Origin: a virus
Taxonomy: Duplodnaviria; Heunggongvirae; Uroviricota; Caudoviricetes
Direction: 5' to 3' (one strand)
IMG/VR virus record: IMGVR_UViG_2531839449_000046
Length of the DNA stretch: 41,869 bases
Positions 36,001-39,000 of the stretch are shown one piece after another; positions within the stretch are counted from its first letter, which is position 1, and each line of letters starts with the position of its first letter. The position numbers are program-made.

Positions 36001-39000
36001 ACATGGCAGGGCTTCGTCTATGTGGCGTTTATCATTGATGTGTTTGCCGGATACATCGTGGGGTGGCGGGTCTCATCGTCTATGGAAACGACATTCGTGC
36101 TGGATGCGCTGGAGCAGGCGTTGTGGGCCCGTCGTCCGTCTGGCACCATCCATCACAGCGATAAAGGCTCTCAGTATGTGTCACTGGCCTATACGGAGCG
36201 ACTAAAAGAAGCCGGATTACTGGCATCAACAGGGAGTACAGGCGACTCGTATGACAACGCGATGGCTGAGAGCATCAATGGTCTTTACAAAGCGGAGGTA
36301 ATACACCGTAAGAGCTGGAAAAACCGTGCAGAAGTGGAACTGGCCACACTAACGTGGGTGGACTGGTATAACAATCGACGATTGCTGGGAAGGCTGGGCC
36401 ATACTCCTCCGGCAGAAGCAGAAAAAGCTTATTATGCTTCCATCGGAAACGATGATCTGGCAGCCTGAGTTCACAGATAAAACACTCTCCAGGAAACCCG
36501 GGGCGGTTCACATCTCCAACGACCCAGCACTCTGCTGTAGCCCCAAAAGATATGAATAAGAACATAGCAGTAAGAAATTGCTTCACGCCAACCTCCTTAG
36601 TTTTGAGCAGGATACCATGAAAAAAGTAAACATCTTTTGCCTACTTCACATTTGAATGGTTTGTCATTAGGATGTTTCCGGTTTTTAAATATGGAAATTG
36701 ATATGAAGAGGATTATTGGCGTCGTTGCTGGCGCTATATTGTTATCTGGGTGCGCAACTATTGTTGGTGACGAAACGCAGCTTGTGCAAGTGAACAGCAA
36801 TCCTTCCGGTGCGAGCTTTAAGGTAAAAGACGAATCAGGCGTGATTGTTGCGCAAGGTAAGACCCCGCAAGGAGTAACTCTTGCCAAGTCAGATGGTAGT
36901 TATTTTGGCAAAAAGAGCTACCAGATCACTATGGAAAAGGATGGGTACGAACCAGTAACCCTGCCAATCAAAGCCAATGCTAATGGCTGGTATATTGGTG
37001 GAAACCTTGTGTTTGGTGGGTTAATTGGTTGGCTTGCTGTAGATCCTTTTAATGGTGGGATGTATACCTTGAAGCCAAAAGAGGCAAACGCATCTCTTAT
37101 ACCATCAACAAAGCAAGACTAATAAATAGGACCCACCTTCAGGTGGGTTTTTTGTACAAATCCTTCAGCGTATCAAACACCATCTTCTTAACAAGCTCTG
37201 ACTGCTCATCAGCGAGTCGTTCTGCATCGTCGCGATATCCAGTCACAGGCGATGGTTTTGATAGAGCATCTTGGACGATTTGTAACAACTCGGAGTTCAT
37301 TGATCTCCCATTCGCCTCCGCCCTGAATTTTAATTTCTCCCTTACTTCCATAGGCATACGGAAGTTAAAGTGCGGATCATCTCTAGCCATGCCATCACTC
37401 CAAGTTAGTGTATTGACATGATAGAAGCACTCTACTATATTCTCAATAGGTCCACGGTGGACCTATATTGTGAGGTGAATATGAAAGGAATGAGCAAGAT
37501 GCCGCAGTTCAATTTGCGGTGGCCTAAAGAAGTATTGGATTTGGTCCGCAAGGTGGCGGAAGAGAATGGTCGGTCTGTTAACTCTGAGATTTATCAGAGA
37601 GTAATGGAAAGCTTTAAGAAGGAAGGGCGCATTGGCGCGTAAAGTTGAAGCCCCAACTGCGGGAACAGTCAGGGCTTCGGTTGTCAGTAAATCCGTGGAG
37701 AAAAACCAACGTGAATAGTATAGCAATTTTAGAAGCAGTGAACACCTCTTATGTACCATTCAACGGTCAGCAAATTATCACCGCCATGGCTGCCGGAGTT
37801 GCATATGTTGCGATGAAGCCAATCGTTGAAAACCTTGGAATGAGCTGGTCAACGCAGCAAACAAAACTCATGAAGCAGATTAGCAAATTCAACTGTGTTC
37901 ATATGAACATGGTTGCCGCTGATGGGAAGCTTCGTAAGCTACTCTGCCTTCCTTTGAAGAAGTTAAATGGATGGCTGTTCAGCATCAACCCTGAGAAAGT
38001 TCGTGCTGACATCCGTGATAAACTGATTCAGTACCAGGAAGAATGCTTTAGCGTGCTGCATGACTACTGGACTAAAGGTCATGTATTTAACCCACGCAAA
38101 GCTAAAAAGGCGTTGCCGGGTAAAATCACCACTGAACAGCAGGAAGCCATTAAACAACTCGTCATGAGTCGCGGTCAGTCTCTGCCAAAAGAAAAACAGG
38201 CTAAGGCGATGATCACCATGTGGTCGTCACTAAAATCCCATTTTGGATGTTCGTACAAAGAAATCAGTGAGGAGCAGTTTACCGAAGCACTATCACTTGC
38301 AGCTCGAGTTCCACTTGAAGGTGAGTTCATTGGCAAACAAGAGAAGAAAACCAACGAGCTTTCTGCAAAAGAAGCAAACAGCCTTGTATGGTTATGGGAT
38401 TATGCCAACCGCTCACAGGCATTATTCCGCGAACTGTATCCGGCGCTAAAACAAATTCAATCGAACTATTCCGGCAGATGCTACGACTACGGTCATGAGT
38501 TCTCGTATGTTATCGGAATGGCGAGAGACGTTTTAATAAACCACACACGAGATGTTGATATTAATGAGCCAGACGGACCAACGAATCTTTCCGCATGGAT
38601 GAGACTTAAGAATAAAGAATTACCTCCTTCAGTACATAACTACTGACAGATAACCAACGCAACGACCCAGCTTCGGCTGGGTTTTTTTATGCCCAAAATT
38701 CACCGTAGCTACTCAGCGGCTATGGCCTTGAGAGATAGCACTACACAAAAAGTGTAGTGCAAAAAGCAAACAAATACTCACCGTAGCCACGCTGCGGCGA
38801 TTCCTTGTATCTGGAGCAAATTAAATGACAGACATTACAGCCAATGTGATTGTATCTATGCCTTCGCAACTCTTCACTATGGCGCGTTCTTTTAAAGCCG
38901 TAGCCAATGGCAAAATTTATATCGGTAAAATTGACACGGACCCGGTAAATCCTGAAAACCAGATTCAGGTTTATGTGGAAAACGAAGACGGCTCTCACGT

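What the first reader, a model, noticed from the sequence alone, without database searches (positions are those of the whole stretch)
38701..38799. Direct repeats flanking a 9-bp-stem hairpin upstream of the tailspike gene
TCACCGTAGCTACTCAGCGGC (38701-38721) and TCACCGTAGCCACGCTGCGGC (38779-38799) are about 86% identical direct repeats. Between them is a perfect hairpin GCACTACAC-AAAAA-GTGTAGTGC (38739-38761) that is not followed by a T-tract, so it is not a typical terminator. The arrangement sits after the ant terminator and before the tailspike start and is unexplained by the annotated features. It may be a regulatory or RNA-processing element, or the scar of a module exchange.
Basis: seen in the sequence. 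Interest (0 to 1): 0.45.

Follow-up and report, generated by a model that had tools for sequence, protein, structure and literature searches.

The report
Gene scrap between duplicated tailspike-leader hairpins
The repeats and hairpin upstream of the tailspike gene are real, but they are best read as a recombination scar: a 54-base leftover of a lost anti-repressor gene, bracketed by two copies of the short conserved hairpin that normally precedes the tailspike gene once. Close relatives with the same tailspike do without it.

Summary
R1 is 38700-38720, R2 is 38778-38798 (18/21 identical; the unit extends to 29 nt, spacing 78). The perfect 9-bp/5-nt hairpin is 38738-38760.

The window is a P22-like E. 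coli prophage (100% to O111:H- 11128).

About 90% of relatives with the same ant terminator carry one copy of the repeat and no insert. Eight of 23 E. coli genomes with this same tailspike lack exactly the 78 bp.

The insert (38721-38774) is a decayed fragment, with an in-frame stop, of codons 50-67 of an anti-repressor gene (PHROG 1726, related to the N-terminal part of P1 Ant). In other P22-like phages that gene sits intact between ant and the tailspike. An intermediate exists: ant-terminator-R1 fused to the same codon, with the rest of the gene intact.

R2 is the conserved hairpin of the tailspike leader. R1 is a decaying duplicate.

The hairpin is the gene's own intragenic palindrome. That palindrome is conserved from Acinetobacter to E. 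coli, with residue pairs changing as reverse-complement codons. This is the more interesting side result.

Verdict: a mosaic-junction scar, probably neutral. A leftover function for the palindrome is not excluded.

The parts
38500..38646 (+). 3' end of the antirepressor gene ant (P22_AR_N + P22_AR_C domains); stop TGA 38644-38646
   Evidence: ORF list. Pfam hits PF10547 and PF10548. Annotated as Ant in identical E. coli prophages.
38664..38690 (+). Intrinsic terminator t_ant (GACCCAGC-TTCG-GCTGGGTT followed by T7)
   Evidence: Terminator scan. Annotated as a terminator in P22, epsilon34 and HK620. Identical in the alignment.
38695..38723 (+). R1: upstream, decayed copy of the 29-nt repeat. Its core CCGTAGCTACTCAGCGG (38703-38719) no longer forms the 7-bp hairpin.
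   Evidence: R1 keeps the hairpin in only 2 of 43 long-form loci, has 11 variants and a mean pairwise identity of 0.79.
38721..38774 (+). Non-coding remnant of codons 50-67 (D-E-L-D-G-E-H-Y-T-K-S-V-V-Q-K-A-N-K) of a PHROG 1726 anti-repressor gene. In that frame it reads Y G L E R * H Y T K S V V Q K A N K.
   Evidence: blastn gives 95% over 41 nt to the intact gene (H135-H138; sequence). tblastn gives 13/14 aa, E=0.005. PHROG 1726 hit at E=5e-101 for the intact gene. The TAG stop is read directly.
38738..38760 (.). Perfect palindrome GCACTACAC-AAAAA-GTGTAGTGC, inherited from the gene, where it encodes E-H-Y-T-K-S-V-V-Q
   Evidence: The identical 23-mer lies inside the intact coding sequence. 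Covariation is seen in 34 coding homologues and in 12 relic variants.
38769..38777 (+). Right junction: AACAAA is shared by the gene (codons 66-67) and by the sequence AACAAATAC that precedes R in phages carrying the intact gene module
   Evidence: L127 and L274 read ...GCAACAAATACCAACCGTAGCC upstream of the tailspike gene. This left-flank type of R is common in loci that carry the intact gene. The microhomology deletion itself is inferred.
38773..38801 (+). R2: intact copy of the repeat. Its core CCGTAGC-CAC-GCTGCGG (38781-38797) is a 7-bp hairpin with one T.G pair, conserved in the tailspike leader.
   Evidence: Folded in the MFE and centroid structures. 193 of 210 tailspike-upstream sequences keep all 7 pairs, and variation sits in the loop. 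It is present whatever lies to its left. R2 keeps the hairpin in 41 of 43 long-form loci.
38802..38824 (+). Rest of the tailspike leader, with Shine-Dalgarno GGAG at 38813-38816
   Evidence: Read directly. Invariant columns in the alignment of P22, epsilon34, HK620 and L.
38825..40762 (+). Tailspike gene (645 aa; conserved P22-type head-binding N-terminus, O111-associated receptor-binding part)
   Evidence: ORF list. Annotated as phage tailspike protein in E. coli O111 genomes.

Best explanation
The element is an evolutionary scar in the hypervariable 'ant moron' of a P22-like prophage, not a device.

Normal arrangement. In most relatives the order is ant, terminator t_ant, one copy of a short conserved sequence R, then the tailspike gene. 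R forms the hairpin CCGUAGC-CAC-GCUGCGG about 27 nt upstream of the tailspike ATG.

Alternative arrangement. In other relatives a second anti-repressor module lies before R and the tailspike gene. It consists of a 242-aa PHROG 1726 gene whose N-terminal domain is homologous to P1 Ant, a 73-aa gene, and an Arc-family gene on the opposite strand.

Steps.
1. An illegitimate join fused the 3' end of R (...GCGGCGAT) to codon 50 of that anti-repressor gene (GAT GAG CTT...), using GAT as microhomology. This gave ant - t_ant - R1 - 5'-truncated gene ... R2 - tailspike. The product is shown; the mechanism is inferred.
2. A deletion between AACAAA in codons 66-67 and AACAAATAC just upstream of R2 removed the rest of the module, leaving 54 nt of gene. 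This step is inferred. A different deletion end-point gave the 89-nt remnant of P22 itself.
3. R2 stays under constraint as the working tailspike-leader hairpin, while R1 decays. This is shown.
4. The 9-bp hairpin is the gene's own intragenic palindrome carried along in the scrap. This is shown.

Consequence. In late transcripts the scrap adds extra hairpins to the tailspike 5' leader, most likely with little or no effect on tailspike expression. This is inferred from its dispensability.
For: - Presence or absence of exactly one repeat unit plus insert. epsilon34, HK620 and CUS-3 have a single R, and the alignment gap runs from inside R1 to inside R2.
- Among 122 readable loci carrying t_ant plus the start of R, 110 are short and 12 long. 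A full IMG/VR scan for the left junction finds only 40 contigs.
- The insert is homologous to an internal coding piece of the PHROG 1726 gene and of P1-type ant. It carries an in-frame TAG.
- Intermediate form: L212 and L239 (E. coli FDAARGOS_1288) have ant - t_ant - R1 joined at the same codon, followed by the whole remaining gene. PGAP flags that gene as 'incomplete; missing N-terminus'.
- The same tailspike (99.3-99.5% identical, with differences only in the first ~220 nt) occurs in O111 strains in three configurations: long form, short form, and the full anti-repressor module.
- R2's left flank (AACAAATAC) matches the flank seen in phages with the intact module, not the t_ant flank.
- R1 is degenerate and R2 is conserved.
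- There is no Rfam family and no promoter-like site here.
Against: - The scrap has not decayed evenly. The 17 nt left of the palindrome differ at 4-5 or more positions from every one of 42 coding alleles, whereas the 23-nt palindrome differs at 0 and the next 14 nt at 0-1.
- The same decayed left flank carries two different palindrome alleles.
- P22's relic differs from an otherwise identical relic by a compensated C-G to A-T change.
- These points suggest either short-patch conversion from intact genes or some force maintaining the palindrome, neither of which a purely neutral scar predicts.
- The predicted intermediate with both R1 and R2 flanking a long truncated gene upstream of a P22-type tailspike was not found. 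The one intermediate found has a different tail module downstream.
- The leader folds more stably than shuffles (z = -4.8), although this includes the terminator.
Confidence: 0.8

Rival explanations
1. The palindrome is itself a functional or self-maintaining nucleic-acid element. It could be a symmetric protein-binding site, a cruciform or hairpin, or an RNA stem. In this reading the scrap survives upstream of the tailspike gene because the element still acts there, for example on read-through from ant or late transcription, or on mRNA stability.
For: - Inside the intact gene family the palindrome is conserved from Acinetobacter, Pseudomonas and Ottowia to E. coli while the encoded peptide is hypervariable. 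Cells paired are 94.1% against 24-50% in slid controls, 6 of 9 pairs change on both sides, and 0 of 500 shuffles reach the observed covariation score.
- Inside the stem each amino acid uses a single codon (TAC 34/34, GTA 31/32, CAC 20/20, ACC 11/11, GGT 11/11). Flanking Leu and Gly use 5 and 4 codons.
- In the non-coding relics the palindrome stays 97.2% paired, with 4 pairs changed on both sides, and is undecayed next to a decayed flank.
- The exact P22 variant also lies between an Ant-like gene and its terminator in L278, next to a second hairpin of the same design.
Against: - The element is absent from about 90% of relatives, and from 8 of 23 genomes with the same ant and tailspike.
- There is only one copy per phage genome, with no operator-like second site.
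- Relic palindrome alleles are identical to alleles that exist in intact genes, so they may simply be young imports.
- The absence of any G.U cell among 306 fits arm-to-arm template-switch homogenisation of a quasipalindrome. That is a mutational process needing no function (established knowledge: Ripley-type template switching).
- L278 and L279 were found by searching with the palindrome, so they carry ascertainment bias.
Confidence: 0.13
2. The whole R1-hairpin-R2 array is a cis-regulatory or RNA-processing leader for the tailspike gene.
For: - It lies in the 5' leader of the tailspike gene within the late transcript.
- It is predicted to form three hairpins in a row after t_ant.
- R2 is strongly conserved upstream of tailspike genes.
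Against: - Only R2 is conserved with the tailspike gene.
- R1 has lost the hairpin in 41 of 43 long-form loci.
- The 78 bp are missing in most relatives, including those with the identical tailspike.
- There is no promoter-like site and no known RNA family.
Confidence: 0.04
3. A miniature transposable element (MITE-like) inserted upstream of the tailspike gene, with the direct repeats as a target-site duplication and the hairpin as its inverted repeats.
For: - Direct repeats flank an insert that is missing from the 'empty site' in relatives.
- The single R of empty sites equals the repeat.
Against: - A 21-29 bp duplication is far longer than usual target duplications.
- The inverted repeat is in the middle of the insert, not at its ends.
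- There are no other copies in the window or in a related phage genome.
- The insert is collinear with an internal coding segment of a gene, and an intermediate carries the rest of that gene.
- P22-type and window-type inserts share the left end but not the right end.
Confidence: 0.02

Closest known systems
Degraded genes and mosaic junctions in the 'ant moron' of P22-like phages (Villafane et al. 2008, PMC2629481)
   Same: Same genomic slot, between the gene 16 homologue and the tailspike gene. Same phenomenon: high genetic flux, alternative gene sets, and degraded ant remnants in HK620 and Scho1. HK620's record annotates 'remnant of P22 ant gene; tANT' at this position.
   Different: Here the remnant is only 54 nt. 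It comes from a different anti-repressor gene (PHROG 1726, P1 Ant-like N-domain), not from P22-type ant. It is bracketed by a duplication of the tailspike-leader hairpin. I found no description of this remnant, which is also present in P22 itself, in the papers I could search.
'Boundary sequences' between phage modules (bsq1 in the CUS-3 GenBank record CP000711; the concept comes from the HK620 genome paper, recalled from my own knowledge)
   Same: CUS-3 annotates its whole 101-bp ant-tailspike spacer, which consists of t_ant plus a single R and the leader, as 'bsq1; boundary sequence'. R is conserved at the edge of the tailspike module whatever lies upstream.
   Different: In the window the boundary sequence is present twice, with foreign DNA between the copies. 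Whether such sequences promote exchange or merely mark its limits is not shown.
Intrinsic (Rho-independent) terminator
   Same: A G+C-containing perfect stem-loop in an intergenic region, downstream of a gene.
   Different: There is no T-tract on either strand. The real terminator, t_ant, lies 48 nt upstream.
Quasipalindrome template-switch hotspots (Ripley model; recalled from my own knowledge)
   Same: Short inverted repeats whose arms are kept complementary by copying one arm from the other. This predicts coordinated Watson-Crick changes without G.U intermediates, as seen here (0 of 306 cells).
   Different: That is a mutational mechanism known from reporter genes. Persistence of one palindrome across a protein family spanning gamma- and beta-proteobacteria has, to my knowledge, not been described.
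sar antisense RNA of the P22 immI region (Rfam RF00262)
   Same: A small structured RNA element in the same ant moron. It is present in this window at 37643-37710 on the minus strand (95.6 bits).
   Different: It has a different place, strand and sequence. The hairpin studied here matches no Rfam family.

Membership tests
Gene remnant (pseudogene fragment) of a PHROG 1726 anti-repressor gene | Collinear sequence homology to an internal part of the intact gene | tested here: met
   39/41 nt match the intact gene in E. coli prophages (H135-H138). tblastn gives 13/14 aa. The P22 remnant aligns over about 30 codons.
Gene remnant (pseudogene fragment) of a PHROG 1726 anti-repressor gene | Loss of coding capacity (no start, stop in frame, missing flanks) | tested here: met
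   GAG has become TAG at 38736-38738 in the gene's frame. No ORF covers the fragment. The left flank has decayed by 4-5 or more of 17 nt.
Gene remnant (pseudogene fragment) of a PHROG 1726 anti-repressor gene | The intact gene occurs at the homologous position in relatives, and intermediate stages exist | tested here: met
   The intact module lies between ant and the tailspike gene in L127 and L274. A 5'-truncated gene is joined to R1 at the same codon in L212 and L239.
Tailspike-leader / module-boundary hairpin R | Conserved immediately upstream of the tailspike gene irrespective of the upstream module | tested here: met
   This applies to R2. 210 upstream sequences show three kinds of left flank, 193 keep all 7 pairs, and variation lies in the loop. 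R is also present in L and ST64T, which lack ant. R1 fails this test.
Tailspike-leader / module-boundary hairpin R | Base-pair covariation proving an RNA structure | tested here: inconclusive
   Only A-to-G changes that give G.U, plus one divergent Citrobacter variant (CCGCAGC..CTGTGG), were seen. The sequence is too invariant to test.
Intrinsic terminator | Stem-loop followed by a T-run | tested here: not met
   The hairpin is followed by AAAAAGCAAAC on the + strand and by TATCTCTCAAGG on the - strand. It is not called by the scan.
Known RNA family (Rfam 15) | Covariance-model match | tested here: not met
   Only sar RNA reaches its threshold in 37000-39200, and nothing matches at 38695-38801 up to E=10. 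The single row nearby (STnc370, 38661-38699 minus strand, 22.8 bits against a gathering score of 54, E=6.2) overlaps the ant terminator and only the first bases of the repeat unit, and is far below threshold.
MITE-like insertion with target-site duplication | Terminal inverted repeats at the ends of the insert, and multiple dispersed copies | tested here: not met
   The inverted repeat is internal. There is a single copy in the window and in a 39.9-kb relative.
Cis-regulatory element needed for tailspike expression | Conserved in relatives that carry the same tailspike gene | tested here: not met
   10 of 23 genomes have it, 8 of 23 lack about 78 bp, and 5 of 23 have another module (checked).
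Cis-regulatory element needed for tailspike expression | Effect on transcript ends, stability or translation | not testable with these tools
   Needs 5' RACE or RNA-seq and reporter fusions.

The most novel reading that the evidence does not exclude
The 9-bp palindrome is a genuine nucleic-acid-level element embedded in the coding sequence of a widespread anti-repressor family (PHROG 1726 and the N-terminal domain of P1 Ant). It is kept symmetric across gamma- and beta-proteobacteria by selection for a DNA or RNA function, at the expense of the encoded peptide. Candidate functions are a binding site for a dimeric regulator, a cruciform, or a regulatory mRNA stem. On this reading it is still maintained, and possibly still active, in the gene-less scrap upstream of the tailspike gene of P22 and this prophage.
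Probability: 0.2. Interest if true: 0.6.

Novelty: new member of a known kind. Interest (0 to 1): 0.3.

Why it matters
For the finding itself, the matter is modest. It explains an unannotated feature that is also present in the classic P22 sequence. It gives a clean, step-by-step example of how phage modules are joined and then trimmed: a duplicated boundary sequence, microhomology junctions, an intermediate, and two independent end-points. It also warns against reading structured intergenic DNA next to a receptor-binding gene as regulatory. R2, not the array, is the conserved tailspike-leader element worth testing.

The side result could matter more. A palindrome is held symmetric inside a coding sequence across distant bacteria, with amino-acid pairs changing as reverse-complement codons. 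This is either an unrecognised cis element of anti-repressor genes or a striking natural case of arm-to-arm homogenisation shaping a protein sequence.

Tried and rejected
- Rfam at E up to 10 over 37000-39200 returned only sar RNA, with nothing at the element.
- The sigma-70 promoter scan over 38400-39000 returned none, so a tailspike promoter inside the insert is unsupported.
- Extra copies of the repeat or the palindrome were sought in the window and in a complete related phage genome, as a test for an operator set or a mobile element. None were found.
- A resemblance of the palindrome flank (GATAGCACTAC) to the Arc operator (GATAGAAGCACTCTAC) was considered and dropped. The symmetric parts do not correspond, and the sequence is explained by descent from the coding gene.
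- I asked whether epsilon34's single R is an R1/R2 chimera, which would prove deletion from a window-like ancestor. The diagnostic T lies in the polymorphic loop and also occurs in R2 copies, so it is not informative.
- Short forms in O111 strains are not simple R1xR2 deletion products of the window.
- Pfam and NCBIfam gave no name for the 242-aa gene, and there is no solved homologue by sequence. Only PHROGs names it.
- Literature searches for a description of the P22 ant-gene 9 spacer repeats, of the CUS-3 boundary sequences, or of a palindrome inside ant genes found nothing usable. Berget et al. 1983 is not in the library.
- Palindrome fragments in L278 and L279 cannot be used as evidence that relics preferentially keep the palindrome. 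They were found by searching with it, so they carry ascertainment bias.
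Full report
WHAT IS THERE

The window is a P22-like prophage of E. coli. The 191 bp around the finding are 100% identical in O111:H- strain 11128 and several O111:H8 genomes.

The region reads as follows:
- ant ends with TGA at 38644-38646.
- The intrinsic terminator t_ant has its stem at 38664-38683 plus a T-run.
- The finding follows.
- Then come the Shine-Dalgarno GGAG (38813-38816) and the tailspike ATG at 38825.

- R1 is 38700-38720 and R2 is 38778-38798, 18/21 identical. They are the only two matches in the window; 0.00 are expected by chance.
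- The repeat extends to a 29-nt unit with spacing 78.
- The perfect 9-bp/5-nt inverted repeat is at 38738-38760.
- A perfect 9-bp hairpin alone is not rare: the window has 3, against 1.1 on average in shuffles. The case therefore rests on comparison.

PRESENCE AND ABSENCE IN RELATIVES

In the phage collection the spacer occurs in three forms:
- epsilon34, HK620, CUS-3 and many others have t_ant, one copy of the repeat, and the tailspike leader. The alignment gap runs from inside R1 to inside R2.
- The window has 78 extra bp.
- P22 itself has 110 extra bp, homologous to the window's insert but only about 74% identical.

Frequencies:
- Among 122 readable loci that share t_ant and the start of the repeat, 110 are short and 12 long.
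- A complete IMG/VR scan for the left junction of the long form finds 40 contigs.
- CUS-3's GenBank record labels its 101-bp short spacer 'bsq1; boundary sequence'.

Among the 23 E. coli genomes that carry this same tailspike gene:
- 10 have the long form.
- 8 match in two pieces with a span about 78 bp shorter.
- 5 match only from R2 onward.

I read three of them:
- Two O111 strains have a plain short spacer.
- One O111:H8 strain has a full extra gene module in front of the same tailspike and acyltransferase genes.
- The tailspike genes are 99.3-99.5% identical to the window's, with all differences in the first ~220 nt.

The array is therefore dispensable for this tailspike.

WHAT THE INSERT IS

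A search with the insert alone hit unexpected places:
- the inside of a 242-aa 'hypothetical protein' gene that lies between ant and the tailspike gene in some P22-like prophages (95% over 41 nt);
- the inside of the ant gene of P1-like plasmids.

The 242-aa gene has no Pfam or NCBIfam hit but is PHROG 1726, 'anti-repressor' (E=5e-101). Its first ~100 residues align with the N-terminal part of P1 Ant.

The window's 38721-38774 corresponds to codons 50-67 of this gene. In that frame it reads Y G L E R stop H Y T K S V V Q K A N K, against D E L D G E H Y T K S V V Q K A N K in the gene. The intact gene is not elsewhere in the window. P22's longer insert corresponds to about 30 codons of another allele.

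THE INTERMEDIATE, AND HOW THE SCAR FORMED

One IMG/VR contig (L212) and one complete genome (E. coli FDAARGOS_1288, L239) carry ant - t_ant - R1 joined at the same codon. The join is followed by the entire remainder of the gene and its 73-aa neighbour. PGAP calls the gene 'incomplete; missing N-terminus'.

The left junction is therefore a fusion of the end of the repeat (...GCGGCGAT) to GAT GAG CTT of the gene. The GAT overlap suggests a microhomology join; this is inferred.

On the right, the window's remnant ends in AACAAA followed by TAC and R2. Phages with the intact module read ...GCAACAAATACCAACCGTAGCC in front of the tailspike gene. This kind of left flank of R is typical of loci with the intact gene. 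A deletion between the two AACAAA motifs would produce exactly the window's sequence; this too is inferred.

P22's remnant ends elsewhere. It runs into a sequence resembling the flank of a second t_ant-like terminator, such as the one that follows the 73-aa gene in L239. So at least two trimming events happened.

I did not find the predicted stage in which R1 and R2 flank a long truncated gene in front of a P22-type tailspike. L239 has a different tail module downstream.

WHAT THE REPEAT IS

The core of R2, CCGTAGC-CAC-GCTGCGG, folds as a 7-bp hairpin with one U.G pair.
- It is found in front of the tailspike gene in all 210 upstream sequences collected, whatever lies to its left.
- 193 of 210 keep all seven pairs, and the variation sits in the 3-nt loop.
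- It is too invariant to prove by covariation.

In the 43 long-form loci:
- R2 keeps the hairpin in 41, with a mean pairwise identity of 0.95.
- R1 keeps it in only 2, has 11 variants, and has a mean pairwise identity of 0.79.

R2 is thus the constrained tailspike-leader or boundary element, and R1 is a redundant, decaying copy.

THE HAIRPIN

The palindrome was not created in the spacer. The identical 23-mer lies inside the intact coding sequence.

The gene family carries it in several variants:
- GCACTACAC/GTGTAGTGC, encoding EHYTKSVVQ;
- GACCTACAC/GTGTAGGTC, encoding ETYTKSVGR;
- GCACTACGAAATTTTCGTAGTTC, encoding EHYEIFVVQ.

The same variants appear in different relics.

In 33 homologues from one-genome-per-species data (Serratia, Erwinia, Arsenophonus, Pseudomonas, Acinetobacter, Acidovorax, Ottowia and others), the peptide after the invariant DEL[DE]GE is hypervariable. 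The DNA nevertheless remains a palindrome.

On 34 distinct coding sequences:
- 94.1% of cells pair, against 24-50% when partners are slid.
- 6 of 9 pairs change on both sides (59 cells).
- No shuffle out of 500 reaches the observed covariation score.
- There is not a single G.U cell among 306.

Inside the stem every amino acid uses one codon: TAC 34/34, GTA 31/32, CAC 20/20, ACC 11/11, GGT 11/11. The adjacent Leu and Gly use five and four codons. Residue pairs therefore change as reverse-complement codons: His/Val, Thr/Gly, Phe/Lys, Glu/Phe. In L249 an extra codon on one arm is mirrored on the other.

This is a nucleotide-level constraint. The lack of G.U pairs points to DNA symmetry or to arm-to-arm template-switch homogenisation, rather than to a typical RNA helix.

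IS THE HAIRPIN STILL DOING SOMETHING IN THE SCRAP?

Against a function:
- It is absent from most relatives.
- There is a single copy per genome.
- It matches no RNA family.
- There is no promoter-like site.

For some maintaining force:
- The 12 relic variants stay 97.2% paired, with four pairs changed on both sides.
- In window-type relics the 17 nt to the left of the palindrome differ at 4-5 or more positions from all 42 coding alleles, while the palindrome differs at none.
- The same decayed left flank carries two palindrome alleles.
- P22's relic differs from an otherwise identical one by a compensated C-G to A-T change, and that exact variant was not found in any intact gene in IMG/VR.

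Short-patch conversion from intact genes in co-resident phages, template-switch correction, or selection could each explain these points. I cannot separate them.

Two further non-coding fragments containing the palindrome were found by searching with the palindrome, so they carry ascertainment bias:
- L278, between an Ant-like gene and a t_ant-like terminator, next to a second hairpin of the same design;
- L279, in a lambdoid prophage remnant.

COMPARISON WITH WHAT IS KNOWN

The slot between the gene 16 homologue and the tailspike gene is the 'ant moron' of Villafane et al. (PMC2629481). [quoted passage not shown] The phage L paper says the same.

The present element is a further instance of that known kind: a gene remnant at a mosaic junction. 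Three features are particular to it:
- The remnant derives from a second, P1 Ant-like anti-repressor gene.
- It is flanked by a duplicated boundary hairpin.
- It is present in P22 itself.

I found no description of it in the searchable literature. It is not a terminator, not a known RNA, and not a MITE.

VERDICT

- The reading 'scar of a module exchange' is supported (confidence about 0.8).
- The reading 'regulatory element for the tailspike' is not supported.
- Interest in the finding as such is low to moderate.
- The conserved intragenic palindrome of the anti-repressor family is the unexpected by-product and deserves its own study.

Noticed in passing
L126 1501-1538; L130-L209 (around 2660-2700); L240-L272 (around 1650-1700); window 38738-38760 is the relic: A 9-10 bp palindrome sits inside the coding sequence of the PHROG 1726 / P1 Ant N-terminal domain family. 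It is conserved across gamma- and beta-proteobacteria while the encoded peptide is hypervariable. Residue pairs co-vary as reverse-complement codons, no G.U pairs occur, and each amino acid in the stem uses a single codon.
   Followed up: partly
L274 (E. coli O111:H8 7-55 62A), L273, L275, versus window 38500-40762: Closely related O111 strains carry the same tailspike and acyltransferase genes; in L274, the one locus read with its flanks, the prophage end lies next to dacD. Between them they show three different ant-moron configurations: long spacer, short spacer, and a full second anti-repressor module. Tailspike differences are confined to the first ~220 nt, which marks the conserved head-binding part and R as the exchange zone.
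   Followed up: partly
L278 4540-4610 (minus strand): Between the stop codon of a 543-aa Ant-like gene and a t_ant-like terminator with compensated stem changes (CCTCGC/GCGGGG) lie two hairpins. One is the exact P22-type palindrome. The other has the same design: GGGTTACAA-AAATC-TTGTAACCC.
   Followed up: no
L279 1990-2025 (E. coli JNEC-KY176): A 31-nt fragment, GATGGTGAGCACTACACAAAAAGTGTAGTGC, of the same gene lies in non-coding DNA of a lambdoid prophage remnant next to a type I restriction gene.
   Followed up: no
L233 (IMG/VR 2534681875_000018): One relic carries an internal tandem duplication of about 38 bp that includes half of the palindrome (173-nt form). This shows ongoing rearrangement at the site.
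   Followed up: no
L239 3375-3410: The 73-aa gene that follows the truncated anti-repressor gene ends with a terminator whose stem (CCCAGCTTCGGCTGGG) is identical to t_ant. Terminator-plus-flank sequences are therefore repeated at both ends of the inserted module.
   Followed up: no
window 37643-37710 (-): sar antisense RNA of the immI region (Rfam RF00262, 95.6 bits, E=1e-20), as in P22.
   Followed up: no
window 37446-37466 and 8840-8865: These are the two other perfect inverted repeats of at least 9 bp in the window. The first lies in the mnt-arc spacer and is the Mnt-operator-like palindrome GGTCCACGGTGGACC. The second is TCTCTAATAC-TGAC-GTATTAGAGA at 8840, of unknown meaning.
   Followed up: no
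window 40803-41869 (-): One or two acyltransferase-family ORFs lie on the opposite strand directly after the tailspike gene. They are annotated 'acyltransferase family protein' in L274 and may be an O-antigen-modifying conversion gene.
   Followed up: no
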